DNA from: Cyanophora paradoxa CCMP329
Taxonomy: Eukaryota; Plantae; Glaucophyta
Direction: 5' to 3'
Assembly: GCA_004431415.1 (NCBI GenBank)
Contig: QPMI01000464.1
Location: 1-56,704, forward strand
Length of the DNA stretch: 56,704 nucleotides
Position 1 is the first letter of the stretch. Every line of letters starts with the position of its first letter. The translations under genes and the position numbers were made by a program. This document shows positions 442-49,060 of the stretch, piece by piece. The notes below the pieces were generated by a model, which did not search any database, was not told the origin of the DNA, and saw only the letters and a program-made list of their open reading frames with translations.

Positions 442-930
442 TCGATGATGCATATAATTTCTGATGCTGGGTTCAGGAGGTCATGGGCGTGGCAATGGGG
501 GCGGCAGTGGGTATGTCGTTTCTATCATTTAGGCACCAGTTCTTGCTGCGTCTGTAATCGCACTTTTTTGTTTTTGAGCGGGGTGTGCGTTGTTTTTGAG
601 CGGGGTGAACCCTGTGAGCAACCCACCTGAGCAGCTGGTCCTCCCTAATCCTCTTTCCCCCTCCCGCACTTATTGGTCTGCCCCTATAAATGAGGTTCTG
701 CTGTGTGTTATTTGTGCAGATTCTGAGTGACTCACTTGCCCGTTACCCTCGCAAATGAAAACCAGTTTGCTTTATCCACGCTCACGGACCATGAATACAA
801 TTGCTACCCCAACCATGTCCGTCTACCCCCAATACATCTCTGTATATCCACCGGTTCCCCGTCTATTTACTCGCTAAGAATTGTTCATGCCCTCGACTTG
901 CCACCTGTTCATGTCCTCGACTTGCCAACG

Positions 931-3305
931 TTAATATTCCTCATCTTCTTCACCCGCGTCTTCCTGTCCCTCGACATCCGACGTGACGTCGGCGTCTTTC
1001 GTCTTTCGCGTCTTCTTGGGAGTCACCTGAGCGTTTCCGCCGGACTTCCGCTTGGTCCCCGTTGGCTGACGTGTTTACGATTACGCCGTATTAATTGGAG
1101 GTGTCTGTGTAAACTCGTACCTCGCGCTCAGTCTGGCCCATGTGAAATGACGCCTCGCTGCCACCACGAGAGACTGCAAACGGGTTTGCCTTGAATGTGA
1201 GTAGCTGCGGCTGCATCCCCGATCCAATTGCCGCCATTGCCATCGACGAGCTCGAGTGCCCAATCGATCCAGCCCCTCCAATACCATTGAATCCACCAGT
1301 AACTGGTCCTCCGGTCCCGTTGAGGGCTAGACCACTGCCACTGTTTGCAGCTGGCCCGATCGGGAAAAGACCTGACTGTAGTTATTAGCCGGAGGTCTAC
1401 ATATTTATAGAAATATTGCACCGAGCCGATTGGTAGCGTTGCCAAGCGGAACGGACGCATGCATGCGGGCCTGCACGTCGGGTGTCTTGAGCGACTTCGT
1501 CACAAACCCGTCTGGGAGGCTTGTCTTCCGCTGTTCGTACTCCGCAAGTCCCATGACCTCAGAAAAGTAGCCAAACCACATTTCCACCGGCTTGCCTGCG
1601 GGTCTCTCGAACTTGAACTGCCAAGGAAGGGTGAATTTGGCATATACCACCATCGTGATATACTGAAGCACCTCGACAAACGATACGACGATGTCGGCGA
1701 CGTTGTTGACGCTGTAATTGTCGTACAGCACTCCAAGGGTGTCGAACTTGGCATCCTTTCCAAACCGAGCAGAAACTTTGCATCCGTGCTTGTCCATGCA
1801 AACATATCCATCCTCGTCCTCTTTGATAACACAATGCACATTGTCTGTGGTCTCGCAATCAGCCTAACTTGGGTATTAACGTATAGTGGAGCACACATTC
1901 GCTGAACCGATTTGATTCGCACTGCCTGTTCACACTCATGTAATCAACGGTTGCAGCCTTGAAGTCTGAGACGATTTCGTAACGCATGATAGTAAACACC
2001 GCGTGTTCCATGCTCGCCAGTTTATGCGGCAGACTAGAAAGTCGAGGGTCCTGCACAAGTACATACACGTGTTAAAGCAGATTTCCAGAGTGTTATAGCG
2101 GAATGTACCTGTTCGTGTACGGCCTCAAATGCAATGTTCCCAACGTTACCAGAATTGATTTGAATCTCTTTCAGCATTGTGCGATCCCGCGAAATTGGCC
2201 AAGCCAATTTTTCGTTGGCCGTACCTTTCACAAGGTAACGGGCCTTCGAGGCCCGCATGATCAAATACTGCCGCAAAAACTTCTGTGTGAGCGTAGATAT
2301 GAGCGTACTACTTATGGAGCGGAATGGCTGACCATTCCATCAATGCTGCAGCTGGTGCTCAACTGGTCGGTGATCGCGTTCACTTGCTGAACAATATCTC
2401 CCTTGGCCGCCATTTTTTCCGCATTCTTCACGATAGCTCCTGTGAAAATACGAATTGCGATTTTGTCGCCGACCTAGGCATTGAGGGAGACGGCGTAAGC
2501 GTGCGTTGTACGTGGAACTTATGTTGATGCAACGTACCTCGTCCTCCAACGTGCCTCGGATTGAATTCGAATCAGTCCCATTCTGTCCGTTGATGCTGTG
2601 CATGTTCCCGATTCGAACGATGCCCTCGAAATCCCTGCCATCCTTCAAATCCGCGAAGGTGCGCGCCACAGTGATCCGCTTGAGAGGGCTGTAATGGTCA
2701 TTAGACTCCGCCGGTTAGGTGTCTAAATTGTATGCGGAGCTTACGATATCATGGTCAACGTGTGGCCAACCGGCGGGCCGACCGCAGCGGGAGAAATCGG
2801 CGCAAGCGCGGTACTTGTCTTTGAGGTAGGGCTAACCAGCAAGCTGTGCTATCTGTCTCAATACGCGTTGAATTCCGACAATACAGTGAACTTACTGATT
2901 GCCTGATGCGACGGGGGGCTGTCCTGCGATAGCCGAGGGAACCTGCTCTCGCCCGTCCGCATCCCTGCGATCATCGAGGACCTTGTCGGCACCATCCGCG
3001 GCATGTCCACTGTCACGAATAAAAATTAGACACAGCGCAAGGACCGTACACACCACTGGCGTTGAAAGTTTCAAAACCCACCTGGCCGCCGGAACCGGAT
3101 TTCCAGAAGCTTCGGGCTTCTCAGTGACATCAATCGCTGTCTCCTCCGCCTCGGCTTCCGGCTGCAGTCCCTTCGCTGGATTACCACTCCCTTTTGCCTT
3201 TGCAGGTGGAGCTGTCGCCGACGCTTTCTTAGGCGTCTTCACACTGGCCTCCTCAGGATTATCACCTTGCGCGGCAGGGGCCGTGGTCTTGGGTTGACGG
3301 GCCAT
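931..3305 (-). CDS. Multi-exon OB-fold (RPA70-like ssDNA-binding) protein, copy A; some frameshifts
   Basis: ATG at 3305 (MARQPKTT). Exons include TFADLKDGRDFEGIVRIGNMHSING..IRGTLEDE|VGDKIAIRIF (resembles an RPA70 OB fold) and CVIKEDEDGYVCMDKHGCKVSARFG (resembles the DBD-C Zn-ribbon region). A Lys-rich then acidic tail ends EEDEEY* at 931. Exon-by-exon paralogue of 16709-19138. Confidence 0.5.
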
Positions 3306-4609
3306 GACGCTTGAAGAGGTGCACACCCGAGTGACCGCGGTGAATTTCAAACTTTGCTCTAACACTGCGGTATCGATTGCGTACTAACCAAAATTGCGTA
3401 CACCCGCAAAAGTTCCCGTTTAGATTAGAATCGCTGCACCCTTGCATTGCTTGCTTCATGCTGGCGCTCTCTAACTCGCCACCGTACACCTTGTTCCCGC
3501 CCTCTAACAGATCCCGCCGGCCTGCTGACGCCGCTCGGCCAGACACATGCACGACGTTCCAGGACGCACACTGCGCGCGTATCCGCGCTGTCCGTTTGGC
3601 GAGGGCCCACGCTGCGCTTTTCAACTCCGGTTACAGTCACCAAGTGCACGCTCGCGCACTTGACATTACCGACCTGGATTCATAGGAGCCGACACCTTTT
3701 TCGATTGCAGCGCAACGTGGCAGTACAGCCGAGATTGTTAGAAATATCGAGAGTGATTATACAATCCAATGATCGTGAATAGCCTGACGGACGCAGCACA
3801 CAATTCGCAATTTGCTGCTGCTGGACGGCGGCGGTGGCGGGTCGCTTGCGATGCACCAGTGGGCGGGGCGATGTGATGTAGAGCGACGGAGTAGTGTGCG
3901 GCAGGGCGCCCGCCATAGCATGTCCATTGAATGACGGCGTGCGGGCCGCTGTGTGTCCCTGGACGTGAAGGCCGCCGCCGTCTTTCGGAGCACGCAGCTA
4001 AGACATGGCGCCGGGGCCGATCGCGAGAAGCCATAGTGCGCGGGAGGGCGCCGGGCCGAGAGCCAGATTGCGCGTAAGGCACTGGAGTGGCATGAGAGAG
4101 ACGCTAGAGTGCGGCGCTGGCGGGGGGCCTGCGAGCAGATCGACTGGCTGAGCTTGGGCGGGTACGGGTGCTTCAGCAATCTTAAGCTCTATGGCTGCAT
4201 AGCTGCACACGCTCTTACTCGGAGAAGCCAGCTAGCATTACACTTGTATTCGTACAATTTAGTTCCCGACCGCGGGCGGGGTGTTGGTGGCGGGGCGGGC
4301 GGGGCGGGTCAGGCGGCCATGGCAGGCGGCGTGGCGGGGCAGGCGCCGCGGGCGGGCCTGTGGCTAGCCGCGCTGATAGTGTTGTTAGTTTATTGAGCCT
4401 CTGCAAAAGATTCAGGGTGTGGCCGCAAGGAATCTATAGATCTATCTTACTGCCGCAGGGATGGGGCCCGCTGCCTGATATAGTCGGCGTCTGGCATGAG
4501 AGAGACTTGCGAATCTTGCTTGCAGCTGCGGACTTGCCTCTGTGACCGCCGCCGACGCACCCGGGCTTGGATTTGTTCTCACTTGCTATCTCCGGCCGTC
4601 CCGGTCCCG

Positions 4610-5640
4610 CCGCGAAGGCTCCGCGAGTAGGGTCGCCTGCGCTCACCTAGTCGCGCAGGGCGCGGCGTTGAAGGGCGGGGAGGCGTGCACGAAGTGAGAA
4701 ATGGCCGCCATGTGTTCGACGCCCCGCCGCAAGGGCGCTGCGAGTCGAGCTCCCTGCATCCGCGCTATCGCGCGGGCGCGGCGTCGAAGGCGGGAGGTGC
4801 GCACGACGCGAGAGATGAGCCGCCGCTGCGCCCCGGCTGCCCCGCCGCGAAGGCGCAGCGATTCGGGGCGCCTGCGCTCGGCTTCTCGCGCGGGCGTGGT
4901 GGGGAAGGCGGTGAAGCGCGCACCAGGCGATAGATGGGCCGCCGCTGCGTCCCGCCGCCCGGCCCTGCGCGAATGCTCCGCGAGTCGGGTCGCCTGTGCT
5001 CACCTCTTCGCGCGGGGCGCGACGCGGAAGGGCGGGGATGCGCGCACCAAGCGAGAGATGAACGCCGCTGCGCCCCGCCGCCGTCGCCGCGCGGCGCCGC
5101 GAGAGGTCCTCCCTGCGCCCGCCCCGTCGCGCGAAGCGCGGCGCCGAAGTGCGGGGAGGCCCGCACAAGCGAGAGATGGGCCGCCGCTGAGCCCCGCGAG
5201 TCGGGTCGCCTACGCTCGCTTGTCGCGCGGGCACGGCGGGAAGGGCGGGGAGGCCGCACCAAGCTATAGATGGGCCGCCGCTGCTACCCGCCGCCCCCAC
5301 GCGAAGTGCCGCAAGTCGAGCTACTTCGCCCGCCCCGTTGCGCGGGCGCGGCGAGGAAGGCGGGGAGCCCGCACCAGCGAGACATGTGCCGCCGTGCAAA
5401 CCGCCGCGCCGGCCCTGCCGCAAAGGCGCCGCGAATCGGTCGCCTCCGTTCACTAGCTCGTCCGCGGGAGCGGCGCTGAAGGCGGGGGCGCGCACCAAGC
5501 GAGAGATGCCGCCGGCCGCTGCGTTCCGGACACCCCGCCGCGGGGTCGCGAGTCGAGATCCCTGCCCCGCCCCGTCGCGCGGGGCGGTGGCGACGGGTGT
5601 GGAGCGCGCACCAGCGAGAGATGAGCCAAGGCTGCGCCCC
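4610..5640. repeat. Degenerate GC-rich tandem repeat, ~118-bp unit, ~9 copies
   Basis: Anchor GCACC(A)AGCGAGAGATG(G/A)GCCGCCGCTGC recurs near 4687, 4801, 4920, 5044, 5163, 5255, 5371, 5492 and 5608. This explains the Arg/Ala/Gly/Pro-rich ORFs here. Confidence 0.75.
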
Positions 5641-5703
5641 GGTGGCTTACTATATTCTAGTCCATGTCCTAGCTAAAATCTTCGCATCGCGGACTGAAAG
5701 CAA
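5630..5703 (+). repeat. Dispersed repeat, copy 1 (GC hairpin + CTAG, Helitron-3'-end-like)
   Basis: GCTGCGCCCCGGTGGCTTACTATATTCTAGTCCATGTCCTAGCTAAA...GGACTGAAAGCAA is nearly identical to 15711-15785. Confidence 0.65.
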
Positions 5704-14899: not shown

Positions 14900-15620
14900 C
14901 CGATCCGTAACTATAGTCACTTCTCCGACGTCACTACTCTTATGAGAAACACACCGCATGTTGATCGCATCCAAATCGTTGAAGATGGAACGGTTCTGCA
15001 ACGATTTCTGCAGATCGAGCCTATCCACATCTTCAGGCCATGGCAAGCCGGGCGTGACTTCGGTATTACCCTTACGTAAACCTCTACTTCTTCACGTCTC
15101 ACCACCAGACGCCTGCCAGCTATCTCTCGGGCACTCGATACGAAACTCCGCCTGCATCTGTCCTGTCCCTACACATCAGAACGTATCAGAGTGCCAGTTC
15201 AGTCAGTGTACTGCGTTCACCCGCACGTACGTGGTCGCATTCCCTTCATAAATTCCACATTATTCTTATCCTGCGCAGTGTTTCGATTTCAACGAGCACT
15301 TGATATTCTCCCTTCATAATGAAGATTGGTCAGCTATTCGTCCTGCACTCATGGTCATGATCAAAGTTAAATCCTTTCCATAGGGAATGCCCATTCCAAT
15401 TCTGCCAAAGACAAGCAGGTCTCCACAATCTCATCATTGACGAGTTCTTCAAGTCCATCCTTGACGGGTCTGTGCCCGATTTACCTTTACATCTCATAAT
15501 TACTGATACCCTCATTCCAGACAACGCCTGCAGATCTCGCTGTCGAAATAGACAACACAGGAAGATGGCTGCCATGCGCTTCCGACAATATACCCGACTA
15601 GATCAAAATCTCCAAGCAAG
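14900..15620 (+). CDS. SP-RING / zf-MIZ (SUMO E3 ligase-type) domain protein; boundaries approximate
   Basis: Removing introns 15227-15278 and 15329-15383 gives LSCPYTSERIRVPVQSVYCVHPH-CFDFNEHLIFSLHNEDW-ECPFQFCQRQAGLHNLIIDEFFKSIL, the SP-RING pattern CP..RI..P....C.H..CFD....W.CP..C....L.ID. Confidence 0.8.
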
Positions 15621-15710
15621 GCTAGGCCGCGCACCCCCATCAGTGCATCACCCCGCCCCGCCCTTCTCTGCCACATCCAACCCGCCCCGCCAGGGCGTCG
15701 CGAGTCGACC

Positions 15711-15785
15711 GCTGCGCCCCGGGCGGCTTACTATATTCTAGTCCATGTCCTAGCTAAAGAGCATCGTACCACGGACTGAAAGCAA
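15711..15785 (+). repeat. Dispersed repeat, copy 2 (GC hairpin + CTAG)
   Basis: Matches 5630-5703 and is preceded by a partial unit of the GC-rich repeat (cgcgagtcga..). Confidence 0.65.
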
Positions 15786-16708
15786 CGTGGCCCCCTAATC
15801 GATAGACCTATAGCTAGTAGTCTTCAGTCGAATCATAGCCACAAACATGGTCATCGTAGCAGTCTGTTTCGGTGCAGCATAGACGATTGCAGATTTCGCC
15901 GCGGCCTTGCCGTATGCAAGGTGCTCTCCTGGCGCTGCTGGTGGTGCATGTCTCTCATTCTTGGCGCGAGGATCGCCGTATTGACGATCAAGAGGGTTTC
16001 GCTTCAGAATCCGCCGACAGCGTATAACTGTGTGATTGGGCAGAGGGTTGTGACATAGAAGTAATCAAGCGCGCCCATGCGGACATGAGCCCATGTGCGA
16101 TCGGTACAGACATCGCATTTTATCATCTCGCTGCTATGTTCCTCACAGTAGATGCTGCATAACAAGGGCGTTGGCTCCAGTCAGATATGTTGGTTTTGTG
16201 CGTAGGGTTGACCACTTAAACATCATATATATCCCTCGCGAACCTGCTACAGTTATCCGATGAGCACCGGTATACCGTATGCTGACGACCGCCAGTACTG
16301 GCCATGGAGGGAGCGTGAAAGTCGTCATTGCAGAAAAGAACAGGACAGCCAGTGACGGATGAACACCGAGCAAGCCGGCACGTTCGTGCTGGTTCGAGCG
16401 GGCATGGGCCGTGCATACCGTCGATGGCAGGGCACGCGTACGGTCCGTGCGCACGCGCGTCGGCAATCTCATCCCGGAACACGCTGCAGTCGAAGTAGGA
16501 GGTGGATCGGCTTCAGCTGCCGGCGCCATTACGCTGTCTGGGCCAGGCCTCAGTCTGACGTAGAGTCTCTGGCATCAAACCCGAACGGCGGCTTTTTTCC
16601 CAATATGCGTACGCGAACTCGGAGAGTTAGTCGACGATCGAGAACTAAAGTTAGTCCCAAATTTGAAATTTTGCGTTGAGTACGTACTCTAAACCATACC
16701 GAAGTGCA

Positions 16709-19138
16709 ATGGCACGTCAATCAAAGGCAGCTGCTGCTGCAGCCACGGCTGAGAAGAAGGACAACGTGCTCGAGCCGAAGAAGGCTGACGTGGCCGCGTC
16801 ACTGGCGAAATCTGATGCCACTGCTGCTGCCGGGAAGGACCCGCTCCCTGTCGCCGTTGACGAGGCTTCGCCGGTGATCCCTACGCCGGTGGATGCGACG
16901 TGGACGACGCGGCACGCGCTGCCTGGGTGCGCTTGGAGTTAATCAATGTTCGGTCCGGCATGGTGCGGATTTAAGCTGACGATCGGCGCGATAGCAGGCT
17001 GAACGACGGCATGCCACGGGAAGGGGCAGCTGCAACTATCACGGCGGCAGTGGCATCGTCTCGCCCGTTGCCTGGCGCGTCCGGATCCATTTGCAATGCT
17101 GGGCAAGTGTACGTATTCTACGATCGCGTAATATTGGCTGTGACTAATACGACGTTATTCGTCCCTGCGTAGATCGGCTGCCGTGCCGGTCGCCACTAAT
17201 TCGGCAAGTGCCACGGCTAATGGGATTGTGATGCTATCGTACGTGCTTTTATAATCAATAGCATTTGTGCACGACGAGCGTCACAACCCTAATATATTTC
17301 CAGGCCCGCAAAGAAGGTTACTGTGGCGCGCACGTTCATGGATTTGAAGGATGGGAGGGATTTTAACGGTGTCGTGCGGATTGCGAACATGCACACCATA
17401 AGTGGAAGGAACGGAGGTGACACCATCCGCGGTACTCTGGAGGATGAGGTGCGCAACCCGTTGTAGCTGGGTAACATCATGTGTAATGTCAATGTGGCGA
17501 TTTTATATAAGCTTTCTGCTCATCGACGTACGCAATGCAGGTCGGCGATAAGGTGCCGCTCCGTATCTTCACAGGGCGATGCTAACAAGTGCGGGAAAAA
17601 ATGCCATCAAGGGAGACATGCTAATCGATCAAGTGAACAATATAACCGAACACTTGAACGCAAGCTGCAACTCAGAAATATGGTATACTCTCCCATTTAC
17701 GTATACTTCCATTATCCGTATCAGTATGCTGACATGGAATATATCGATCAGTACTTAATCATGAAATCATCAAACAAAGCACGCTACTTGGTGAAAGGGA
17801 CTGCGACCGAGAAACTGGCTTGGCCATTGACGCGAGACCGCACACTGCTGAAGGAGATCCAGATTAATTCTGGTAATGTCGGTCTAATCAACTTCGAATC
17901 AGTGAATGAGGAGGTCTGTCACTCATGTTTTACCTATATTCATATCGCGCGTATTCATTACCTGCTCACTTTTGCTGCCGTACGTTAGGATCCTCGTCTC
18001 ATCGAGCTTCCTCACAAACTCGCGAATATGGATCGCGCATCATTTGTCATGATGCGCTACGACATCGTTTCCGACTTCAGGGGAGCAGCAGTTGACTATA
18101 TGAATGTCAACAAACTGTGCGACTCGAACAGGTTCAGCGAATGTGCGTGCTACTATAGATAACTGGGATGATACCACGTTTTTCGTCGCGCTCGTACCGT
18201 GTTTTATCGCTTCATCAGATAACATTGGATGCATCATCAAGGAGGAAGAGGACGGATACGTGTGCATGGACAAGCTCGGGTGTAAGGTGCCAGCTCGGTT
18301 TGGACTTGGCGCAAAGTTCGAGTCCTCGGGAGCTGTTCGACACCTACAGCATCGACGGGGTCGCGGACATCGTCGTTTCATTCGCGGAGGTTCGGACGTC
18401 TATACTGTAGTTAAACATGGTAAACGAATGCAAGGCGTAATTCACACGCATTCAAACGTAGTTCAAATTCGAGCGACCATCAGGCACCCCGACGGAACTG
18501 TGGTTTGGCTTCTTTTCTGAAGTAATGGGACTTGCGGAATTCGAGGAGAAAAAGAAGACCCTGCCGGTAGGGTTCGTCTCGAAGGCAATTAAAATTCCGG
18601 ATGCGAGTGCTCGCTTGCATGCATCTGTCCCGTTTGGTAATGGGTCGAACCGAGTTGGTGCGGAAGTTCAGCCTATCGGTTTTAACCTGTGTAACCCTTT
18701 CATGCAGCGCTCTTCGCCGGCGGTACCGGCCCGACAGGGAGCACCCCGAATTTGTCGGGTACGACCGGGATCCCTGTCAAGGTTGGAAATGGTGGATCAG
18801 CGATCGCTCTGAATGGAATCTCAAGCTCGCCGATGGCAATGGCAGCAATGAACATGCCGATGCAGCTGCGCCTGAGCCTGAAGGACAATCCGTTCGCGGT
18901 GTTTCGCGATCGCACTGGAAGTGAGGCTTCTTTTCCTAATGGGCTCGTTGAGCGCGAGGTATATGACTTTCCGTACATTGCATATGCCACGTTCCAGCTA
19001 ATCTCGTAGCAGGCAACTATCGCAAAGCGGAAGAAGGGAGGCAAGGACGAAGCCAAAACTTCAAAGAAACAGAAGAACGTGAGCGTGGAGTCGGAGTCAG
19101 ATGCGGAGGTGGACGACGAGGAGGAGGAAGAAAATTGA
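16709..19138 (+). CDS. Multi-exon OB-fold (RPA70-like) protein, copy B; some frameshifts
   Basis: MARQSKAA... TFMDLKDGRDFNGVVRIANMHTISG..IRGTLEDE; YLIMKSSNKARYLVKGTATEKLAWP; GCIIKEEEDGYVCMDKLGCKVPARFG; acidic tail DDEEEEEN* at 19138. Several intron positions match copy A. Confidence 0.5.
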
Positions 19139-19618
19139 ACGGACCGACTCATGGCTCTGCATCTAATTCATAGATTCCATATATTCATTCATAGTTTGAA
19201 CATTTGTCATGTATAGCACAATGGCGGGAGGTAGTAACCGGGTAGCATTATATATATATAGGTTTTCGTAGGTCATTTCGCTTCGCATACGAGATAAAGA
19301 GTGTAAATCAATTTCTTATAAAGTATCACGCAACGATGGCATACGAATCAACCGCACCGGGGCGCGGTTGGCTAGGTTGGGAAGCTGGGCGACCGCGGGC
19401 CGGGGCGCTGTAGCTCCGAGGGCGTGCTCCTGGTAGCGGACGCTAGATGGCAGGGCCAAAGCGCTGGAAGAGGGCCCGGAATGCGTCGGTAACATATTCT
19501 CACGTGCTGCATCCCTACGAAGCATGATGCACGCGACGTACACTGCGAGCACCCCTACGCTTGGTGCGCGCTTTCGATTGCGTACCCGGCCAGTCCGTGC
19601 ATCTGATCCGCGTCAACT

Positions 19619-20178
19619 ATGGCGCGTGTGAAGGTGACGCCGAAGAAATCCGATCAACGGATGGCCTCCAAGGCCGCCACCGGGTCCCGCGGTCCGCGCA
19701 GGGCCAAGACGGGAACGAAGAGTGTCATTCCGGGAAGGAAACCTCACCGTTATCGTCCAGGTGCGAATGCTATCGCCCCATATCGTACCTCGCGGTGCGT
19801 GGATGATTACCACGTCAGCCCGAACCCGCAGGCACCGTCGCGCTTCGTGAAATCCGCAAATACCAGAAGACGACAGATCTCCTCCTTCGCAAGCTGCCGT
19901 TCCAGCGGCTGGTGCGCGAGATCGCACAGAACTACGGCATGCCGGACAAGCGCTTCCAATCCTCCAGCGTCCTTGCGCTACAGGAAGCCAGCGAGGCGTA
20001 CCTTATCGGCCTTTTCCAGGACGCAAATCTATGCGCTATCCACGCAAAGAGGTGCATTGCGACCTACTGATCATGAATACAACTACACTGCTTACATCTT
20101 ACAGGCCCGACGCGCAGGGTGACGCTCATGCCAAAGGATATGCAACTCGCCCGTCGCATCCGAGGCGAGCGCACATAA
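19619..20178 (+). CDS. H3: Divergent histone H3 variant (3 exons: 19619-19760, 19832-20051, 20118-20178)
   Basis: Spliced product [104 protein letters not shown] introns of 71 and 66 bp. Confidence 0.95.
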
Positions 20179-20951
20179 ATCGTACGATTTCCAGGACGTG
20201 AGGTGTGCTCCGACAACTCCGGTGTAATCCAATTCAGGATACAGTATGTTTAACGCTTCACGAGATTATGTTGCACGTACACTCAATGCAACGGATTGAA
20301 AACCGTAATAAAGCCCGTTGAGTAACGCGACGGACCAACCATCGGACGTGCACTAATTCAGCGGCACGTTATCGAATACAGATGCACATGCTACTTGCAT
20401 ACTGCAGTGACTCGCTCATGTTGCACAGTCTTCCACTACTCTGGGTAATGCCTGGAGACGGGGGCTGGTCCAGTTGGAAGCCAGCGCCGGGTTGCTTGCG
20501 GGGGGGGCATGGCCGGGAGCGACGGAGTACGGGGCACTACGGGGCGGCAAGGACGATGCGCTGCGGCGGGCCGGTGCATGGGGGCGGATCGCGCGGGGCG
20601 GAGGGCGATGGGCTGCCTCCACATCTCTCGGCTGACGTGCGCAAGATTGTGCTCACCCCGGTCGCCATCGCCCTTGCATGACCGACTCATCATATCGCTG
20701 ACGGATGACGTTTGCCACGTTCTCGTCCGCGCTCCTGTAACGACATCGGAATCAAGATTTTATAGTATGGCGAAGTGTAGAGACGTGTTGACAAATTAAA
20801 GGGAGAGGGGGCGACGGTACATGAGGAGGGGGGGGAGGGCGGTAGGGGGGAGGGGGGTATGGAGCTTACCGCCGAATGGCCTCCTCCGCGAGTACGGCCA
20901 CCTGCATTGCAAGAGTCAGCCGTCATACTGAAAACGTCATTATCGGTAGTC

Positions 20952-23940
20952 CTATGCTTCGGTATGATTGAGTGTAAAAATCGTGTGGACCCTACAGTCG
21001 ATCAAGTACAGAATCAAATCGAGCCGGCCGGGGACGCCGATGCCGGCGCCTTTGCAAATCTCCACCAGCCGACCCCGAAACATCTTCATTGGATACAGCA
21101 GCAGCTCCGGCCCTGTCAATGGCAGCTCCTGCATGCACTGTAACCTGCTGCAGCGTTGGCTGAGAGTTCACGTAAGGGAAAATGGACGGACTCTGGAGAT
21201 CCATCAGGGAGCGTGACAAATTGGCGAATATACGCGAGGACGGTGGGAGGCGTCCAGGTCATCACCGTCGCGGAGTCCGGGCCCACGGTACCCGGAGGTT
21301 GGGCTCCCATGTTCCCCGTGTTATCGTCGTCAACGCTGTCGCTCGCGGCATGTACCGGTGCGTTGGCATCTGACGTTGGATTACTAGGTGGTCAGAGACG
21401 ACGTTCCAATAGAATATAACTTCGCTAGATCTAAAGTTGCTAGCTCAGGCACTGATAGCGCCTGCACGACCGCACGTCCGTAATAGCGCACCTGCCTCCG
21501 GTCGTACTCTCTCGGTTCTCGCCCCTGCTCTCCGAATTAATCGGGTAGCCCGAATATTTAAACTCGATAGGTAATAATTCGCACACCCTCTGATGAGACT
21601 TTAGCCTTCTTCGAATTCCGCGTGTTCGCACTTGGGCCCCGTCCTTCTTTGCAGCAGAAGAGCTCTCCTCGATCACACTACCCGCCGATTCGTACGCCTC
21701 CTCGTCCTCGTACGCGTCCTCCCCATCCGTCTCGCCCTCTACTCAAGGCGCCATGCGTCAGCGATTACTCACATCGCATCGCTCGACATACCACTACTGG
21801 TTTCAGCGTTGTACTTGGGGCAGGTCTTCATGTGATTGGACAGGGTCTTCTTGCTGGCATACGTGCGATTGCAATTAGCAGCGGGGCAAGGGAGACGGTC
21901 GTCGTCGGCCTTCTTGCTCGTAGCTTCGGAAGCTGCTGGATAAATTCAATGAGTACCGTTCGCACACCAGCCGGCGCACATGAGAGGCATGTTTGGCACC
22001 TGACTTCCGTTTGCATGCATCAATGTGCGTCCCCTTTCCTTTGAACGTTATGCCACAGTTATCACAAATAAACGGCGCCTGCTTCTTTCGCGCTTTCCCA
22101 GACGATCCTGCATCTCAGTCAGATCGGCTGCAGTTATGCATGATGTATGGGGAATGCAGTCAGCGATCGTGACCGTACCCCGTGACGCCTCGGTGCCCTT
22201 TCCTGCATCAGTCGACTCCGCCCCCTTCGAACCCTCGCGCTGGTTGCCTGCAATTGAGTCTAAGGGGTCGCTCCCTCGAGGGTGTTCGGGGACCTCTTAA
22301 ATTCAACGCATCCTGCCGCTCACCAGGCCCTCCAGGTTGACTGTCTATACCTCGAGACTTGCCTGCGAGCATGTGAACTGTGACCATCTCGAGTGGATAT
22401 TACGGTGCACCGGTTGCGTACCTTTCGATGTGGCGACGGGTGGTACGCCCGCCACCTCGCCTGCTTCCTTGCCCTTGCCAGTACCGCGCGATGACGCCAT
22501 GCCTGCGGGCTCGAAGGACAATTAACTGCCGTATCCTTGCGACAGACGCTGCTCCCTTCGTTCGTGCACCTGATGAACGAACCGTAGTCTGGGGGGGGCT
22601 TGATGCCCGCTCTTGTTTCACTTCGTCCGGGCGCCGCCACAGATTGGGCGGCGCAGGGACATTCGATCTCGTGGTTCTCGCCTGGGGGGGGCTTGATGCC
22701 CGTTCTTGTTTCACTTCGTCCGGGCGCCGCCGCATATTGGGCGGCGCAGGGACATTAGATCTTGTGGTTCGCATTGCATCGGCGGGCTCGACTTTCGGCT
22801 GTACAGCGCGACCATCTTTGTACGCATCAGAACTACATATATCGCGCCAATTTCAAAGTTCCAATGACCGCACCTGTGCTGTGACGCCGCGGGCTCTTCT
22901 CTGATAGGCGCATCCCATCTGCGGCTCCAGCATTGCTGCCGCCTATTACGCCTGGCACCCCGCCCGAGCCTGCCGCAGAGCCGAACCGAGGTTGTCAGTC
23001 GCATCGTTCTAGCGGGGCTGCGCGCATGCACCTGCTATGTCGCCTTGGTCGCTCGAACCTGGTCCTGGGCCAATCGTGACGTCACACCGCGAGCCATCGG
23101 AGGTCAGTTCCTTCACTCCGGCTGATCCACTATCGCTGCCGCCGGGTGTACATGCGCCCCCGTCCAAGCCTGCCGCCAACCCGAAGTTGTCAGTCGCTTC
23201 GTTCGAGAGGGGGTCCGGGCAGGCACCTGCGATGTCGCCTTCAGCCGGCGCGCTCGCAGTCTGACTGTCGCCTTCCGCGGGGTTATTTGCCGTCGCCGCC
23301 GCGCGCGCCGTCCCGCCCGTGTCCTTTGCACCTTCTGCCGAGTCCAGATCGATCACTGCTCGATTACAGTCAGCGTCAGGGCGCGGCGCTCGCTTAGTCT
23401 ACGGTATCACCTGGAGCTCCGTCGCCTTCGGCATCGCCTGAAAGCGCCGGCGCCTCGCTCGTCGTCTTTCTCGACTCCATTGTCTCGTCGGCCGAGTCCA
23501 GATCAATCACTGCTCCAGTCCGGTCAACGCCAGCACGCTGCGCTTCCGTGGCACTCTCACCTGATTGAGCCGCTAGCGCTCCTGCCGTACTGTTCCCTTC
23601 CATGTCCCTTTCGGCCGCGCCACCGCCCTCGTCGTCTTGTGCGAGCCTCTCGGTACGATCGTCGCCGGCGTGCGGCGAACCACACTCTCGCTCCATGTGC
23701 ACCTAGTGCTGCGGCTGTCAGCTGGTTCCCTGTGGTGATGCTGTGCACGTGCACCCGACGCTCTGGTCTTCAGCTTCCTTACCTGCTCGCACCTGGCGTC
23801 TTACGCGCTTATTCCAACGTGTACCCCTTCGACCAGCCGTCCTGGACGGCTGCTCCCTTAGCTTCATTATAAGCTCATACTCGGAAGCCCGACGTCGACG
23901 GGCGGCGGCTGGGCTCCTGGTGCGACACGGGGATTGATCA
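20952..23940 (-). CDS. Multi-exon low-complexity protein: 2 SIM-like motifs, 2 C2HC-type Zn fingers, C-terminal SAM-like domain; 5' end uncertain, frameshifts
   Basis: AVIDLDSA twice (~23500, ~23350); FICDNCGITFKGKGTHIDAC (~22070-22010); CPAANCNRTYASKKTLSNHMKTC (~21890-21820); VMTWTPPTVLAYIRQF...LTGPELLLY...GAGIG (21270-21040); an in-frame 93-bp duplication at 22589-22772. Confidence 0.5.
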
Positions 23941-24923: not shown

Positions 24924-25112
24924 ATACTATCCGGCGATACTATCGCCCCGAGGTCATACTATCCGGCGATACTATCGCCCCAAGGTCATACTATCCGGCG
25001 ATACTATCGCCCCGAGGGCATACTATCCGGCGATACTATCGCCCCGAGGTCATACTATCCGGCGATACTATCGCCCCGAGGTCATACTATCCGGCGATAC
25101 TATCGCCCCGGG
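24924..25112. repeat. 6 x 32-bp tandem array, each unit with a GGCGATA-C-TATCGCC palindrome
   Basis: Unit ATACTATCCGGCGATACTATCGCCCCGAGGTC starts at 24924, 24956, 24988, 25020, 25052 and 25084. Confidence 0.95.
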
Positions 25113-25518
25113 TAATTCTATCCGGCCATCCTATCCTGATTGGTCGACGAATTTGTGTGGGGCGCCGGCATTCCATCCATATATGTTTCCGGAGTCGCCG
25201 TGATGTCATGACCCCCAGTGTGTCGGTGACGTCGGTGTATATATGTATATGTCGGAATATGCGAAAAAAAGAAAAACCAACCACAAGCACGGAGGTTCAG
25301 ACATATATACGAAATATATACATGACTGAATTGTTTATTTTTCATAGAACTCGCATGTTGTTTGCACGTATCTTGCATAGTGGGCGGGGCTTTTCTCTCC
25401 AATGGGTGTATCGGTGTCCACCACCTTATTTTTCGAATATGTACATATGTACTTTTCTCGATGGCATCGCCGATCACGATGCACAAAAAATAGGGAACAT
25501 CAGCCTCGAAATTTTGAA

Positions 25519-26136
25519 TTAGTTCTTGGGCTGCTTCTTGCGAGTCTCATTGAAACACTTGCGACATTTTGAATATAGACCATCTTTGGCAGTACTTCTT
25601 TTATTATAATCACTTGCAGGCTTTTCGATCTTGCAAGCAGAACAGGTCTTAGATTCGACGTTAATCTTTGGGCACATCTTCATTGATTCGGCATGCATTT
25701 TCGCATAATCATTCTTGCACTCTTTGCATGCTGAGTTGAACCCATCCGCGGTATGAGCATTGGTGTGGAATTCTGAGATTGGCTTAGTTTCTTCACAATT
25801 GGTGCACGTCTTAGATTCGATTTCAGGCTTTGGCTTTGAGGTGCGTTTAGAAACGTGTTCGGCTTGAACGACTTTGTAGCATGGGGCACAATATGCTTGC
25901 AGAGTAATGTTCCCCGATTTCAGCTTCCTCTCTCCAAACTCACAAGCCGGCTTCGTTTCCTTGCAGCGGTTGCATTGCTTTGTCTCAGGTTCGGGAAGTT
26001 GCCCCACAATGGGATAGGGAATCAGTGGTGGCATTTCAGCCAACGGGATGCATTGAACAGTGAAAGGCATTTTCGTAGGATGACAGTGTTTATAAAAAGT
26101 TGACATCAAATTTTGCGAGGGGTCGATTGCGTCCAC
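25519..26136 (-). CDS. Intronless protein with three tandem CxxC...CxxC zinc ribbons (virus/phage type); likely ATG at 26070
   Basis: KQCNRCKETKP..EF...YCAPC; KTCTNCEETKPISEF..DGFNSACKEC; KTCSACKIEKP..DGLYSKCRKC. This is the K.C..C...K...F....DG....CK.C pattern common in large-DNA-virus and phage HNH-associated proteins. Confidence 0.75.
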   Translation of the reverse strand: MDAIDPSQNLMSTFYKHCHPTKMPFTVQCIPLAEMPPLIPYPIVGQLPEPETKQCNRCKETKPACEFGERKLKSGNITLQAYCAPCYKVVQAEHVSKRTSKPKPEIESKTCTNCEETKPISEFHTNAHTADGFNSACKECKNDYAKMHAESMKMCPKINVESKTCSACKIEKPASDYNKRSTAKDGLYSKCRKCFNETRKKQPKN

Positions 26137-26754
26137 TACCTTATTTTTCTATCGATCCCCGATGGCATCGTGAAGCTCCCGATGCTATCGAGAGGTTCCC
26201 GATGCTATTGAGCAAGTTCCCGATGCAAAAAATAGGACTAAATGAGGGTACATTGCGGGAAAACGAGCTAGCTATACTACTATGAAAGGAATGCATAGAG
26301 TTATGATAAGTTATGCATAGTTTGGGGGAAACTTTGGGGGAAAGTTAAAGATTTATGCAAGGGGATACTGAGGATTGGGATAAAGTTAGTGCAAAGATAT
26401 GCATAAAGTTATAAAAACTATGAAAGATTTATGCATATTGGCACTGAGGAGACTGAGAATTCAAGATTGAGGGAAGTGGCGAGACTGAATAAGATAGGAT
26501 AATGTCGGATTTAATTGGTGTCCAGCACCCTTACCCGACCCCCGGCCCCTGGCCGAGCCACCCGGCCCATGGCCAGCCCATGGCCACCGACCTATATTCT
26601 GCGTGTAGGATTCTGCTGCATATTTAAAGTACATACAATCTGCTGCCAATTACAAAGAAGAATATATAGTTGTCGGGTCGTTGGCAACGTGGGCGAGACG
26701 CCACGTGGAGCAAGTGGGGCCAAAGTTCCGCGAGTGCCCCGTGTACATGTGTGA

Positions 26755-29700
26755 TCAGTAGATAGTTGCCCGTTTTTTCCCTCGCTGCTCCTTCATGTCG
26801 CAAGCGCTGCACATGCATGCGATTGAACGAAAAGAATTCTTGGTCAAGGGAGCCGACTGCTGAACAGTGAGAAATGGCATCACTATGAAACTAGCAAATC
26901 ATACCTTGTAGTTCCATGTGAGGGGTTCACCGGGTTCAATGACTCTTCTTGCATAGAAGCCATAATGTAACTTCCCGTTGACCATGCACTTTCGCAGCTC
27001 AACATTTGGGCTGCAACTGTGATTCATGAGTACTGGCCATCCACCTGTCGACATATCCAGCAGCATCCTGCCACTCATATCAACAAATCTTTCAATAGAG
27101 AATATAAGCAGAAGATTGGATTACGGTGTCCCTTCAAGCTGAATGTGCACGGTGATCTTGCTTTTCCGCGATTTCTCTATTGCAGTGCCTTCCTTGACAA
27201 AGCTGCCAACGAGCTCGGCCAGGAAGGTGTCTTTACGAATACGCTTGGCCCACTTGGGAAGCCGGACACCTGATCCACATTTGTCCTGGAACACTTCAAC
27301 AGATATACTGTGCGAGAAGCCAATCTCTCTGAAATGACGATTTCCACAGTCGAGGTCTCCGAAGGAGCATGTTCTCGCAGTGCATTGTTCTCCTAGGGAA
27401 GCGTTCGAACACATTGGCCCAGATCCCACGCTGCTGCACATTTCGTCGCCCCCCGTGTTCTTGCAATCACACAACTCTCCCGACCTGTCAACACGCTCTG
27501 GGAAACCAGAAGACTGTCATCTGTCGATTGGGATCGATTGACAGCAGCCTCTGCACCTTTGCAAGAGAGTGGAGTAGAAGTAGGGCCATATTGTTCACGG
27601 ATTTCCCACATGCGATCGCGGGATTTGCTTGACCCATCATGGGTCATGCAAGCCGTGAGAGGAGGGCTCAATTGAAGGAAAGGTGGCAACGGCATTGACG
27701 GATTTGCTTCAATTTCAGCATTATATTTGCGTTGCCTCTCAATGAATCTGCGGAGAATAGGTCGATCAACATGTACATGTGCAGTTCACAATCATTGCCG
27801 ACTCAAGCTTTTTCGCCTACCTCTGCTCAAGAGCCTGAATCAATGACTCCGTGTCGCCGTGTCCTGCTTGCCGTACCCTCTCAGAGCAAAGTTCTTCCAG
27901 CCTATTCTTGAAATCATGGAGCGTGAAGGGGTACTTGAAGGAAGCATGCTTGGTGAATTCCTCTAATGCACGGCTACGCTTTGATAGACGCGGGGGCCTT
28001 TTCGTGGAGCAATGGTTCTCGACCATTATGCCCACACAGGTGGACACCATGTGAAGGAAATTCGCGCAATGTACCCCACACTGCACGACATCACATCATT
28101 GGCAAAGCAAAACCATATGTGGGATGAGAGAACAACACAAACCGTCAGTCCCCCTGTCTGACGTCCTGTGTCGAGGATGATCGAGTGCACACGGGCTTTG
28201 GTCATGGTATGAGCACACCAGAAATCTTTCAAATTATCCGGCAAGGAAGAGCCGATAAGAGCCCAATCGTGCTTCTCGCCTTCAGTAAACCTTCTTCCCA
28301 GCATCGAATCGTGGATCAATAATCCAAGCCCGTCCGAAAACTTCATAAGCACAACTCCGCGCCTGCAATACGCAAATACTCTCAAGCTATATTTCGAAAA
28401 ACCACAGATACAATTCAGTTACCAATGATAACCAGTCTCCCATGGAAACGCAATTCCAGCCAGTGGTTTGCGGTGCATATAATACTTGGCCAACTCTTTA
28501 TGGAGGTGTCCTCTCAGTCGATCCATGTCGTCAATGTTGCCAACCTCGATGCAATACATTCCTCTCTTTGAGAAGGCATTGTGTACATCTTGAAAATAGA
28601 GATCTAAAAAGGAGCATGATCAGATAACTGAAGGCAGAGATGCGCTATCGCAAACGCACAATTTTGGATATCATGGTCGTTCAAAGGATCACCTTTCGTG
28701 TGGAGCTGCACGTACTGAAACTTGTGCTCTTTGAGCTGCTCTGGAGGTGCTGTGGGTGGAGGCATGGGCGCCGGCTGTGCAGTTGGTGGATCAATCGACG
28801 GGCCCAATCGGTAGATATAGAATTGCTTCTGCCCGTACGTCCCAATCAACGCCGGGTCAGCGAATCTATTCGTGGAGCCATCTGTTCCCGGAAGATCACT
28901 TTTTGCTGGAGCTGGTGTGCAGCCAACTGGGATCAGTCGAGACAGCCCAGTCTTCTTACAATCCCGACGTGTAATCTCTTTCTGTGTAATTACCTGTAAT
29001 TTGAAATTCACGTGAATTCACAAAATGGGCTTCATAGCCAGGGCACGAAGCGCACCAGCAATCCGGGAGCACAGGAGAGCAAACGTGAGAGGATTTCTTG
29101 CCTTACACCAGGGGGCATAACATAGTCATTGAGAATCACATGGGTGAAATGGTGCCTGTATGCAGGTCAGAACAAGCAGCCATCAAGCAGCTGTGTGCTC
29201 ACCTTGCAAAGTCTACTTCCCTCGCATCTCCCCAGACCATACTTGTGCGGGCCATGTATTTTTCGAGCATGATGAGGACATCTTTGTGCTCGACAGGATC
29301 AAAAACATCCATGCACTGCACAAGAAATTGATCTTGAAGAAGGTTGTATTCGTTCTCTCCTTTGGAGACCTCAAATCCGACCAGCTTTCCCACTTGGAAT
29401 GGCAGGCGCCGCACATACAGAGCAGCTATCAAAGCGAGCTGCGCAAAAATTGTCCAGAAGACACATGTCAAGATTAAGAAACGGCATCTCGCAGAATGAG
29501 AAAGAGACACCTTCCTGAGCAAGCCACCTGCTCCAGCTCCGATGTCGGCCAGAACGATATCTTGTCTAGAGTCTTGAGGAGGCTCGAGGAAGTAACTGTC
29601 TGTGGGAAGAAGGCCATTTCTGGAGAGAAGAACATCTAAGAGAAGAAGACCATCCAAAAGTCCCAGCTCCCCGTACTTCAGTGCTACACAAAGCTCCTGA

Positions 29701-32700
29701 GCTGAATCTGCCTCTCGCCTAGTCGGCATTTCCTTCGGGACTGTAGAAAAGCGCCTTTTGCATTCAAGATATGTAGATTCAGAGTAGCGGCCTTGTGTGA
29801 ACACTTTGCAGAGCGGTTCCCATCGCGAGCAAAACGACTGGATTTTCTTCCACTGGTGAAAGATAAGTTGCAGAGGACATTGATTAACACACTGTTGAGG
29901 GTTAATCAGAAGTGAGTACTGAGGACGGATACAAAGAACACACCTCTTCCACATCCGGAAATGGTTCTCCCGTTGCACAGAGTTCTGATTGATGGTTGTT
30001 GTCATATGTTTCCACTTTGTTTCCGTCGACGGCTAATGCTTCTGCATCCATCTCCGAGATCCAATCGAATGCTGGCATCATGCGCGTTGAACCAGCTTCA
30101 TCCCCGAATTCCGTGGCTGGCCGCGGTGAAAACAACACCAGAGCTGATTGTTGCTGATCGTAGGTTTCCAAAGAGCTTACAAGAGGCTCAGACCCGACAT
30201 TCTCCTCAGTTTCATCGACCTCTGCGTCAGATTATGAGCTATCACATCATCATCATTGGGCCATGCTGCCCGAGGATTTCATTAGGCCCTCACCAGCCAG
30301 CCCATTGTTGGCAGGTCTTGAGTGGGAGCCGGGCGAATCTTGCAACGAATTCGAGTGCTCCAGCTCGAGCGCCTGGGATGGGCTGGGGCTCCTCCTGCAT
30401 GCTGCTTCTACCAACGTTTCTGGAGGAGCCTGATCATTGCTTAAGCCGCCTGCAGTCGATGAAGCCTCCAGCGAACTGTGCAAATCCAGAGCACTGTCCC
30501 CAGATACAGCTCCCTCCAAACGAGCCTCATCATGACGATCTCCAAGAACATCTACACCACAAGTTTAGCGGGTTCAGTTTCCAAAGAGCTTACAAGAGGC
30601 TCACGAGGCGATTGACAGGCCTTGGCTTCAGACCCGACATTCTCCTCAGTTTCATCGAGCTCTGCGTCAGGTCATGAGCTATCACATCATCATCATTGGG
30701 CCATGCTGCCCGAGGATTTCATCAGGCCCTCACCAGCCAGCCCATTGTTGGCAGGTCTTGAGTGGGAGCCGGGCGAATCTTGCAACGAATTCGAGTGCTC
30801 CAGCTCGAGCGCCTGGGATGGGCTGGGGCTCCTCCTGCATGCTGCTTCTACCAACGTTTCTGGAGGAGCCTGATCATTGGTTAAGCCGCCTGCAGTCGAT
30901 GAAGCCTCCAGCGAACTGTGCAAATCCAGAGCACTGTCCCCAGATACAGCTCCCTCCAAACGAGCCTCATCATGACGATCTCCAAGAACATCTACACCAC
31001 AAGTTTAGCGGGTTCAGTTTCCAAAGAGCTTACAAGAGGTTCACCAGGCGATTGACAGGCCTTGGCTTCAGACCCGACATTCTCCTCAGTTTCATCGAGC
31101 TCTGCGTCAGGTCATGAGCTATCACATCATCATCATTGGGCCATGCTGCCCGAGGATTTCATCAGGCCCTCACCAGCCAGCCCATTGTTGGCAGGTCTTG
31201 AGTGGGAGCTGGGCGAATCTTGCAACGAATTCGAGTGCTCCAGCTCGAGCGCCTGGGATGGGCTGGGGCTCCTCCTGCATGCTGCTTCTACCAACGTTTC
31301 TGGAGGAGCCTGATCATTGGTTAAGCCGCCTGCAGTCGATGAAGCCTCCAGCGAACTGTGCAAATCCAGAGCACTGTCCCCAGATACAGCTCCCTCCAAA
31401 CGAGCCTCATCATGACGATCTCCAAGAACATCTACACCACAAGTTTAGCGGGTTCAGTTTCCAAAGAGCTTACAAGAGGTTCACCAGGCGATTGACAGGC
31501 CTTGGCTTCAGACCCGACATTCTCCTCAGTTTCATCGAGCTCTGCGTCAGGTCATGAGCTATCACATCATCATCATTGGGCCATGCTGCCCGAGGATTTC
31601 ATCAGGCCCTCACCAGCCAGCCCATTGTTGGCAGGTCTTGAGTGGGAGCTGGGCGAATCTTGCAACGAATTCGAGTGCTCCAGCTCGAGCGCCTGGGATG
31701 GGCTGGGGCTCCTCCTGCATGCTGCTTCTACCAACGTTTCTGGAGGAGCCTGATCATTGGTTAAGCCGCCTGCAGTCGATGAAGCCTCCAGCGAACTGTG
31801 CAAATCCAGAGCACTGTCCCCAGATACAGCTCCCTCCAAACGAGCCTCATCATGACGATCTCCAAGAACATCTACACCACAAGTTTAGCGGGTTCAGTTT
31901 CCAAAGAGCTTACAAGAGGTTCACCAGGCGATTGACAGGCCTTGGCTGCAGGCAACTGCCTAGGCAGATCTGAATTGTCAACGTTGTCAACGTTGGCACT
32001 CTCTGCAGGCACATTGTAGCATGAGATGAGGCAGACAGGTACAACTGCAGAGCCTGTCAGAGCCAAATCTGTGCTGCGGTCACTGTGCTGGTCTTCCAGC
32101 GGTTCGTGCTGGTCTTCCAGCGGTTCAAGTACGACATCTGAACAAATGGTTCTTTAAGAGCGTGCGGGAACAGAAGGAATCACATATGGTCCTCACTAGG
32201 GTTTCTTGTCGACACGATGTGAAAGCATTGCTGTAGTGGTACAGATCTCGCTTCGTCGGGAGGACAGTCGAGAAGGAAGGTGTACCACGCCCTCATGAAC
32301 TCATTCTGTTCTGAAAGAGGGCCTGTGTTTGGTCTGGCAAGAGGAGGCGGAGCACACTCTGAGCCAAAAACCAAATTAGAAACTGTATTCATGAAGCTTG
32401 CAAGTGCGGAAACGCACGCTTGCGCCTCTTGCACGGAGGCAGTGCTGAACGTTTTTTCGCCTTGGTGTTTCTCTGTCCAGGAGCAGCCTCAGTGTCAGTC
32501 TCTGCATGCCCAGCCATGTCCTGCACATCCTCACAGAGATCCACATCTGAGCAATGCTCTCAGTGCATGCACATGCAGACATGCAGGCCAAAAGAACATG
32601 CAGTCCTCACCAGGTCTTTTACTTTTTACCTCATCCCAGCAGTCATACAAGGACAATTGCCGTGCCTTGCGATACGTGCAGTCAAGAAGAAACGTGTACC

Positions 32701-43438: not shown

Positions 43439-43530
43439 TGCAGGGTATGGTTAGAAGCATGAGGGTGTGCGCTCGATTGCATTTATAATTATTTGACACT
43501 AGTTTGCAATTGGGTGCAGCTAAAACTGAA

Positions 43531-47904: not shown

Positions 47905-47927
47905 TAAGAATACCTTAGAAAAATTAA

Positions 47928-48200: not shown

Positions 48201-48222
48201 ACTCTATATATAACCAATATTC

Positions 48223-49054: not shown

Positions 49055-49060
49055 TTTACA

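What the first reader, a model, noticed from the sequence alone, without database searches (positions are those of the whole stretch)
19619..20178. Histone H3 variant with a rewritten tail and partial CenH3-like features
Seen: the tail [45 protein letters not shown] keeps K4 and K9-S10-like positions but loses the ARKS (K27) context, and canonical GVKKPH becomes PGRKPH (Arg at the K36 position). Loop 1 is one residue longer (NYGMPDK vs DFKTDL), with no Lys at the K79 position. T107 becomes A, while Q68 and F84 stay canonical. Established: a longer loop 1 and loss of T107 are CenH3 hints; retained Q68/F84 argue against. Inference: a cargo H3 that has altered the very sites (K27/K36/K79) relevant to the nearby SET and DOT1-like enzymes.
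Basis: partly seen in the sequence, partly recalled or inferred. Interest (0 to 1): 0.72.

Follow-up and report, generated by a model that had tools for sequence, protein, structure and literature searches.

The report
Multicopy mark-poor histone H3 in alga
The alga Cyanophora paradoxa has an intact, spliced histone H3 variant, annotated in five copies, that lacks the lysines at positions 27, 36 and 79 and likely builds nucleosomes that cannot carry those methyl marks; it is probably neither the standard nor the centromeric H3.

Summary
The gene is real: three exons give a 140-residue H3 identical to Cyanophora paradoxa gene models. Both introns are spliced in three probable RNA runs from three studies and not in a DNA run. 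Five gene models share the core, four of them directly after the same orphan gene, and a sister variant (88% core identity) has four more. All reported changes are confirmed. G34P, E105Q, I119L and A7P/R8K are added. The fold is 84% identical to canonical H3, keeps Q68 and F84, and groups with canonical H3s, although an AU test does not reject CenH3 kinship (p 0.23). A 2017 kinetochore dataset lists it, without comment, among five 'CenpA' entries; another entry there (Q68A) is the better CenH3 candidate. Best reading: a lineage-specific, canonical-derived replacement H3 in a recently amplified block, likely unable to take K27/K36/K79 methylation. The tie to the nearby K36-class SET gene is not shown: that gene lies beyond a CpG-depletion step, and 'DOT1-like' and 'RPA-like' found no database support. 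No transposase was tied to the block.

The parts
19619..19760 (+). H3 variant exon 1: rewritten N-terminal tail up to the start of the fold
19761..19831 (+). intron 1, 71 nt, GT-AG
   Evidence: skipped in X15, X17, X18, not in X5
19832..20051 (+). H3 variant exon 2: most of the histone fold, with loop 1 (+1 residue, no K79), Q68, F84, E105Q, T107A
20052..20117 (+). intron 2, 66 nt, GT-AG
   Evidence: skipped in X15, X17, X18, not in X5
20118..20178 (+). H3 variant exon 3: helix 3 and stop
16709..19138 (+). upstream orphan gene (563 aa, model P0122), 10 introns seen spliced; directly precedes the H3 in 4 of 5 gene-model sets; relatives found only in C. paradoxa; RPA-likeness not confirmed
   Evidence: no family or fold match
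20734..22114 (-). convergent spliced gene, probably the C2H2 zinc-finger gene; RNA contigs run through from the H3, as overlapping 3' UTRs would give; full extent not determined
   Evidence: CT..AC joints; zf-C2H2 E 9e-4 and related model E 3e-6, the latter at its cut-off,
16530..21400 (.). part of the amplified block seen directly: two DNA contigs at depth 363-375 with no allelic variants listed; the second contig is 5,516 bases long, so the block likely runs on to about 23,750; ends unknown
   Evidence: tables 2, 3, 8
26902..27516 (-). context, not shown to belong: AWS-SET fragment of the H3K36 methyltransferase class
29202..29729 (-). context, not shown to belong: methyltransferase-like motifs (YGEL, DIGAGAG) that recall DOT1 (motifs recalled); no database match
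   Evidence: sequence; no DOT1 hit

Best explanation
This is an intact, spliced histone H3 variant of Cyanophora paradoxa, annotated in five near-identical copies, that likely arose from canonical H3 and likely pairs with host H4 in non-centromeric nucleosomes that cannot be methylated at K27, K36 or K79. Shown: gene structure, splicing, five gene models, linkage to one orphan gene in four, a sister variant family, the residue changes and a conserved fold. Inferred: the protein is made and loaded into chromatin, probably outside S phase since the gene has introns. It keeps A1-R2-K4 and so probably K4 methylation. K36R with G34P would block Set2/NSD-type methylation. A7P/R8K may also weaken K9 writing and reading (enzyme preferences recalled). 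E105Q hits a site whose yeast mutant bypasses SWI/SNF. Where it is deposited it would dilute these marks and leave mark-poor, accessible chromatin. The block spread recently, by segmental duplication (about 45%) or inside an unidentified mobile element (about 40%); some copies may be assembly duplicates (about 15%).
For: Exact match to C. paradoxa models: three accessions identical, two more with an identical core. Introns spliced in 3 of 3 probable RNA runs laid and 0 of 1 DNA run. Core identity to a canonical-type H3 is 81 of 96 (84%), against 56-76% for 9 CenH3-like cores. Only 15 substitutions and one insertion in the fold; R40-R49, R63, R69, R72, R83, C110, H113, T118, D123 and R131 are unchanged. 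The two C. paradoxa variants form a supported pair (100/95 and 97/95) whose nearest rows are canonical-type H3s in both trees. A sister family shares P34, the +1 loop, K82, Q105 and A107 while the tails have diverged, which argues for constraint on the fold. Q105 and L119 were seen in 0 of 141 other H3-like proteins. Orphan-gene accessions sit directly before the H3 accession on four contigs. The species has canonical H3 with ARKS and a separate Q68A H3. H3 E105K is a yeast SIN mutant, and G34 mutations lower K36 methylation in cis (PMC10657182 passages).
Against: The AU test does not reject grouping with six CenH3-like cores (p 0.23), and the split from them has only 86/79 support on 97 columns. 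van Hooff et al. list this protein among the CenpA orthologs that they drew from a tree of 831 H3s; I could not see that tree. A107, L119 and M124 are frequent in the CenpA entries. RNA status of the runs is the tool's guess, and contigs give no level. There is no protein, localisation or modification evidence. Depth steps fit five copies (unit about 72.5), but 12% of random sets fit as well and no single-copy baseline was measured. One of five H3 models has no listed orphan neighbour. E105K is reported to change nucleosome structure and stability very little, and E105Q is milder.
Confidence: 0.6

Rival explanations
1. It is a duplicated or young CenH3: one of several centromeric H3 paralogs, with a divergent tail and lengthened loop 1 for centromere targeting.
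For: Divergent tail, +1 loop and T107A; L119 and M124 as in many CenpA entries; listed as CenpA by van Hooff et al.; AU p 0.23.
Against: Q68 and F84 kept. Core 84% identical to canonical H3 against 56-76% for CenH3-like cores. The green and red algal CenpA entries with the typical motif read PFARL or PFSRL and RW/RY. C. paradoxa has another H3 with PFARL. The same dataset also holds canonical-looking PFQRL/RFQ variants from Bigelowiella and Coccomyxa, so it is permissive. A +1 loop with Q68/F84 occurs in 12 of 235 stored proteins, several with canonical tails.
Confidence: 0.2
2. It is cargo of a large mobile element that also carries its own K36-class SET, DOT1-like and PHD genes; the element's enzymes mark host nucleosomes while its own H3 is immune.
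For: Dispersed near-identical copies with a fixed neighbour. The SET fragment's best hits are K36 methyltransferases, and the variant has K36R and G34P. PHD fingers resemble NSD-type ones. The block shows no CpG depletion (o/e 1.18) in a genome where most repeats are reported methylated (PMC12344493). Transposons recruit chromatin domains widely (bioRxiv 2021.11.30.470311).
Against: A CpG o/e step near 26,000 separates the H3 block from the SET/PHD region (1.14 against 0.78, 52 against 32 tiles, p 1.5e-11; tiles are not independent). No transposase, helicase or integrase was found near the block among 336 frames scanned; the only such hits are a DIRS-like element at 42-45 kb. DOT1 and RPA labels are unconfirmed. 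No PRC2 core found in the species. Recent origin alone explains intact CpGs.
Confidence: 0.12
3. It is a transcribed duplicate under relaxed selection with no distinct role; the copies are passive by-products of segmental duplication or partly uncollapsed assembly.
For: The published assembly holds 34.7 Mb of duplicate features (PMC6704402). The window carries 12 one-base deletions against reads in 5 kb. Tails of the variant families are nearly unalignable.
Against: Open frame, clean splicing, and two families that keep the fold at 88% and share derived residues.
Confidence: 0.06
4. It is a giant-virus histone left by an endogenous virus.
For: C. paradoxa has endogenous giant-virus elements (PMC12344493 section 9). 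The window ends in an AT-rich, virus-like stretch. Two viral or metagenomic H3 cores also have Q105.
Against: The five viral H3s found are 45-78% identical in the core, below canonical H3's 84%, and none groups with it. The gene has introns and CpG o/e 1.25, against 0.28 in the virus-like stretch.
Confidence: 0.02

Closest known systems
C. paradoxa 'CenpA' entries CPAR004349 and CPAR026130 in van Hooff et al. 2017 (PMC5579357, supplement file 3)
   Same: CPAR004349 is this protein in an older, gapped gene model; CPAR026130 is the sister variant P0005.
   Different: Listed as CenpA orthologs; the searched main text does not name Cyanophora. Copy number, linkage, splicing and residue changes were not seen discussed in the passages read. 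My tests favour a canonical-derived variant.
Atypical plant H3 variants H3.15 and H3.10 of Arabidopsis (PMC10426802 passages)
   Same: Lineage-specific H3 variants; H3.15 has K27H and dilutes H3K27me3 when deposited, the same logic as proposed here.
   Different: Not orthologous as far as tested. This one loses K27, K36 and K79 together, has a fully rewritten tail and E105Q, and lies in a dispersed multicopy block in a unicellular alga where no PRC2 core was found.
CenH3/CENP-A (criteria as given in PMC4359364)
   Same: Divergent tail, longer loop 1, T107 replaced.
   Different: Q68 and F84 kept, 84% core identity, canonical side of the tree, better candidate elsewhere in the genome.
Lone H3 genes of giant viruses (loci L001-L005)
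   Same: Single H3 with altered mark sites and no H4 beside it in the window.
   Different: Nuclear, intron-bearing, no CpG depletion, 45-78% core identity to the viral ones.

Membership tests
Histone H3 family | H3 histone fold | tested here: met
   Pfam Histone E 1e-41; the 60 PDB hits shown (of 176) are H3-type, best E 7e-33
Canonical H3 / H3.3 | conserved tail with ARKS at K9 and K27, K36, K79 | tested here: not met
CenH3 | highly divergent N-terminal tail | tested here: met
CenH3 | longer loop 1 | tested here: met
   +1 residue; not specific, as 12 of 235 stored proteins have it with Q68/F84
CenH3 | loss of Q68 | tested here: not met
   PFQRL kept
CenH3 | loss of F84 | tested here: not met
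   RFQ kept
   T107A; also in 4 of 45 parsed loci with canonical loop, Q68 and F84
CenH3 | phylogenetic grouping with CenH3s | tested here: inconclusive
   best trees place it with canonical H3, AU p 0.23; CenH3-like rows were chosen by motif from metagenome loci, not verified centromeric proteins; published dataset lists it as CenpA
CenH3 | centromeric localisation | not testable with these tools
   needs imaging or ChIP
Lineage-specific replacement H3 variants | expressed, intact gene beside a separate canonical H3 | tested here: met
Lineage-specific replacement H3 variants | incorporation into nucleosomes | not testable with these tools
   needs proteomics or reconstitution
Mobile-element cargo | dispersed copies with conserved neighbours | tested here: met
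   4 of 5 models follow the same orphan gene
Mobile-element cargo | transposase or integrase and defined ends or target-site duplication | tested here: inconclusive
Helitron with RPA-like gene | OB-fold RPA-like protein and Rep-helicase | tested here: inconclusive
   models at pLDDT 31 and 38; no clear match; no Rep-helicase hit

The most novel reading that the evidence does not exclude
A large mobile element of an undescribed kind in a glaucophyte carries its own spliced histone H3, stripped of the K27, K36 and K79 sites and with a damaged K9 context, and uses it to build methylation-refractory chromatin that keeps its copies unsilenced; two such H3-bearing families (five and four copies) have spread independently.
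Probability: 0.15. Interest if true: 0.85.

Novelty: new variant of a known kind. Interest (0 to 1): 0.5.

Why it matters
A natural, spliced H3 that lacks three major methylation sites at once, and carries changes at the oncohistone positions G34 and E105, is a ready-made test of what those marks do in the glaucophyte lineage. It also bears on a published dataset: four of the five C. paradoxa 'CenpA' entries keep Q68 and F84 and are probably not centromeric. If the block proves mobile, it would be a histone-based anti-silencing strategy of a eukaryotic element. If not, it is one more lineage-specific H3 variant, unusual for its multicopy spread.

Tried and rejected
No whole genome is held, so H3 genes could not be counted and the other loci could not be read. 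The run search listed no holder on record as RNA; the RNA label is a guess. Runs of organisms B and C held next to none of the words, which is no proof of absence. RPA/OB fold of the orphan: no Pfam, NCBIfam or PDB sequence hit, low-confidence models, no Foldseek hit at E 0.001, best VIA Z 5.6 (rmsd 3.0, 67 aligned), in the background range. DOT1: no hit. PWWP-like stretch near 37.5 kb: no meaningful hit. Nine single-exon ORF guesses from the flanks were not in the collection, 0 of 9, so flank copy number stays open. Helitron-type ends: 6 hairpin-plus-CTRR sites, no control run, not used. Telomere repeats: none. Depth quantisation was not significant. No close relative among the 80 loci kept of 124 from metagenomes (full-length matches at most 68%) or among 5 viral loci. 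No H4 or H2A remnant in the window. No protein-atlas result was obtained. Read depth over 21.4-30 kb is not available. Literature searches listed no paper describing this variant; the library lacks most subscription papers. Complex prediction was not used, since H3-H4 is a textbook pair.

Full report
Observation. Splicing window 19619-19760, 19832-20051 and 20118-20178 gives a 140-residue H3. A search with exon 2 returned three EukProt proteins at 100% and one at 85%, all from Cyanophora paradoxa. P0003 equals the window's protein and has three accessions. P0002 and P0004 have the same core with different N-termini, probably model or frameshift differences. That makes five gene models. P0005 is a second variant with four accessions. 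Both introns are skipped in contigs of X15, X17 and X18 (RNA by the tool's guess, three studies) and not in DNA run X5; I laid 4 of the 24 runs listed.

Anatomy. The tail keeps A1, R2, K4, T6, K9 and S10 in register but has T3V, Q5V, A7P and R8K. Counted back from R40 it has T27, P34, R36 and K37. Its lysines are at 4, 8, 9, 17, 29, 33 and 40 of the mature protein. Against a canonical-type core fetched from a metagenome locus (L009) the fold differs at 15 of 96 positions plus one insertion: E59D, I62L, D77N, F78Y, K79M, T80P, L82K, A88S, S90L, V101I, E105Q, T107A, I119L, I124M, A135T. DNA-contact arginines, T118 and the H3-H3' residues (roles recalled) are unchanged. Among 141 other H3-like proteins, filtered from 235 stored and biased towards the query, Q105 and L119 occur 0 times, A107 once and R36 five times. 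The sister variant shares P34, the longer loop, K82, S88, Q105, A107 and M124, keeps K36 and adds R72F.

Is it CenH3? By the criteria quoted in PMC4359364 (passages) it meets tail, loop and threonine and fails glutamine and phenylalanine. A +1 loop with Q68/F84 occurs in 12 of 235 stored proteins, and T107A in 4 of 45 parsed loci that are otherwise canonical. Core identity to canonical H3 is 84%, against 56-76% for nine CenH3-like cores. In trees of 86 and 30 rows (66 of 85 loci gave a usable core; 10 duplicates dropped) the two variants pair with support 100/95 and 97/95 and sit among canonical-type H3s. The trees are mostly unresolved, and an AU test does not reject joining them to six CenH3-like rows (p 0.23). 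Against my reading, van Hooff et al. 2017 (PMC5579357; passages and parts 110-111 of supplement 3) include this protein among five C. paradoxa CenpA entries taken from a tree cluster; I could not see the tree file. Four of the five keep PFQRL and RFQ. The fifth reads PFARL, as algal CenH3s there do, and is joined by its gene model to what looks like an MCM protein (recognised by eye). It is the better CenH3 candidate, though its fold is incomplete in that model. Mikulski et al. (PMC5405695; passages and section 17) count 12 H3 genes in the species, report ARKS at K27 in the closest H3, find no PRC2 core, and call H3K27me3 inconclusive. So this is not the standard H3, and K27 loss need not mean escape from Polycomb.

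Surroundings. Upstream lies a 563-aa gene with ten spliced introns. Its cluster members carry accession numbers directly before an H3 copy on four contigs (P010286/7 then P010288; P012118 then P012119; P014198/9 then P014200; P015368/9 then P015370); the fifth H3 model has no listed neighbour. A search of 1.84 billion representatives found only two relatives, both C. paradoxa. An inverted paralog at about 0.9-3.3 kb in the window has no H3 beside it. The RPA label could not be confirmed. Downstream is a convergent spliced gene, probably the C2H2 zinc-finger gene; overlapping UTRs are common in this species (PMC6704402 passages). In DNA run X5 the block is covered by two contigs at depth 363-375 with no allelic variants, so any copies are near-identical. 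The eight contig depths fit a unit of about 72.5, giving five copies, but 12% of random sets fit as well and the tool warns that depth is no copy number. The species is reported as likely haploid, with 34.7 Mb of duplicate features.

The enzymes. At 26.9-27.5 kb is an AWS-SET fragment whose best solved relatives are SETD2, NSD and ASH1L, all K36 enzymes; PHD fingers lie at 37-39 kb. That fits K36R suggestively. But CpG o/e drops from 1.14 in 1-26 kb to 0.78 in 26-42 kb and 0.28 in the virus-like end, so the H3 block and the SET region have different methylation histories. Silencing or gene-end methylation, both reported for this species (PMC12344493 passages and section 9), could cause this. 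The DOT1-like stretch has motifs only. Whether these genes travel with the H3 is open. Of 341 frames of at least 70 codons, 336 were scanned against Pfam (five tandem-repeat frames left out). The only mobility genes were a DIRS-like reverse transcriptase and tyrosine recombinase at 42-45 kb; short exons could be missed.

Mechanism. Shown: an intact, spliced, multicopy-annotated H3 with a conserved fold and a rewritten tail. Inferred: it is loaded with host H4 as a replacement variant, keeps K4 methylation, cannot take K27, K36 or K79 methylation, and may be a poor K9 substrate. G34 mutations lower K36 methylation in cis, and E105K makes yeast SWI/SNF-independent with little structural change (PMC10657182 passages). 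The variant would therefore dilute these marks where it lands, as Arabidopsis H3.15 does for K27me3 (PMC10426802 passages). K36 and K79 are mostly gene-body marks (recalled), so 'escape from silencing' is a bolder step than 'mark-poor chromatin'. I give 0.6 to this reading, 0.2 to a centromeric role, 0.12 to an element with matched enzymes.

Novelty. Divergent lineage-specific H3s are a known kind (PMC3380720 and bioRxiv 2021.11.30.470311 passages; the preprint's supplementary tables, not seen, may classify this sequence). The sequence is already in a public dataset under the CenpA label. Searches listed no paper that describes it as a variant or notes its multicopy block. The scan's own notes hold nothing for this genome or look-alike DNA; those found by sequence concern other H3 genes, mostly viral. 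Verdict: real, a new variant of a known kind, interest 0.5.

Noticed in passing
window 41972-45835: DIRS/Ngaro-like retroelement: reverse transcriptase, RNase H and tyrosine recombinase on the minus strand, with an identical 61-bp repeat at 41972-42032 and 45775-45835.
   Followed up: no
window 46000-56704: AT-rich, CpG-depleted (o/e 0.28 over 47400-56704), frameshifted virus-like stretch with prokaryote-type AdoMet decarboxylase, patatin and phage-tail repeats; probably an endogenous DNA virus.
   Followed up: partly
window 900-3300 (-): Inverted paralog of the orphan gene upstream of the H3 (45-65% protein identity), without an H3 beside it; a third paralog P0235 lies on another contig.
   Followed up: partly
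P0005 (four EukProt accessions): Sister H3 variant with four identical models, keeping K36 but with P34, R72F, Q105 and A107; two further divergent C. paradoxa H3s with C-terminal extensions appear in the van Hooff dataset.
   Followed up: partly
window 37300-39950 (-): Duplicated (about 1,655-bp) module of a PHD finger preceded by a PWWP-like stretch (motif recalled, no database hit); with the AWS-SET it may be one NSD-like gene.
   Followed up: partly
window 25522-26148 (-): Intronless ORF of repeated Cys pairs, with a weak Stc1 match and weak matches in three viral contigs.
   Followed up: partly
window 4606-5641, 15685-15785, 24924-25135, 30188-31951: Tandem arrays of 119 bp (GC-rich, its end repeated at 15.7 kb), 32 bp and 440 bp; possible element ends, not resolved.
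   Followed up: partly
window 15080-15316 (+): MIZ/SP-RING zinc-finger fragment, below the curated cut-off, just left of the block.
   Followed up: no
window 16400-21400: Twelve one-base deletions and one substitution against reads: apparent frameshifts in this window may be assembly errors.
   Followed up: yes
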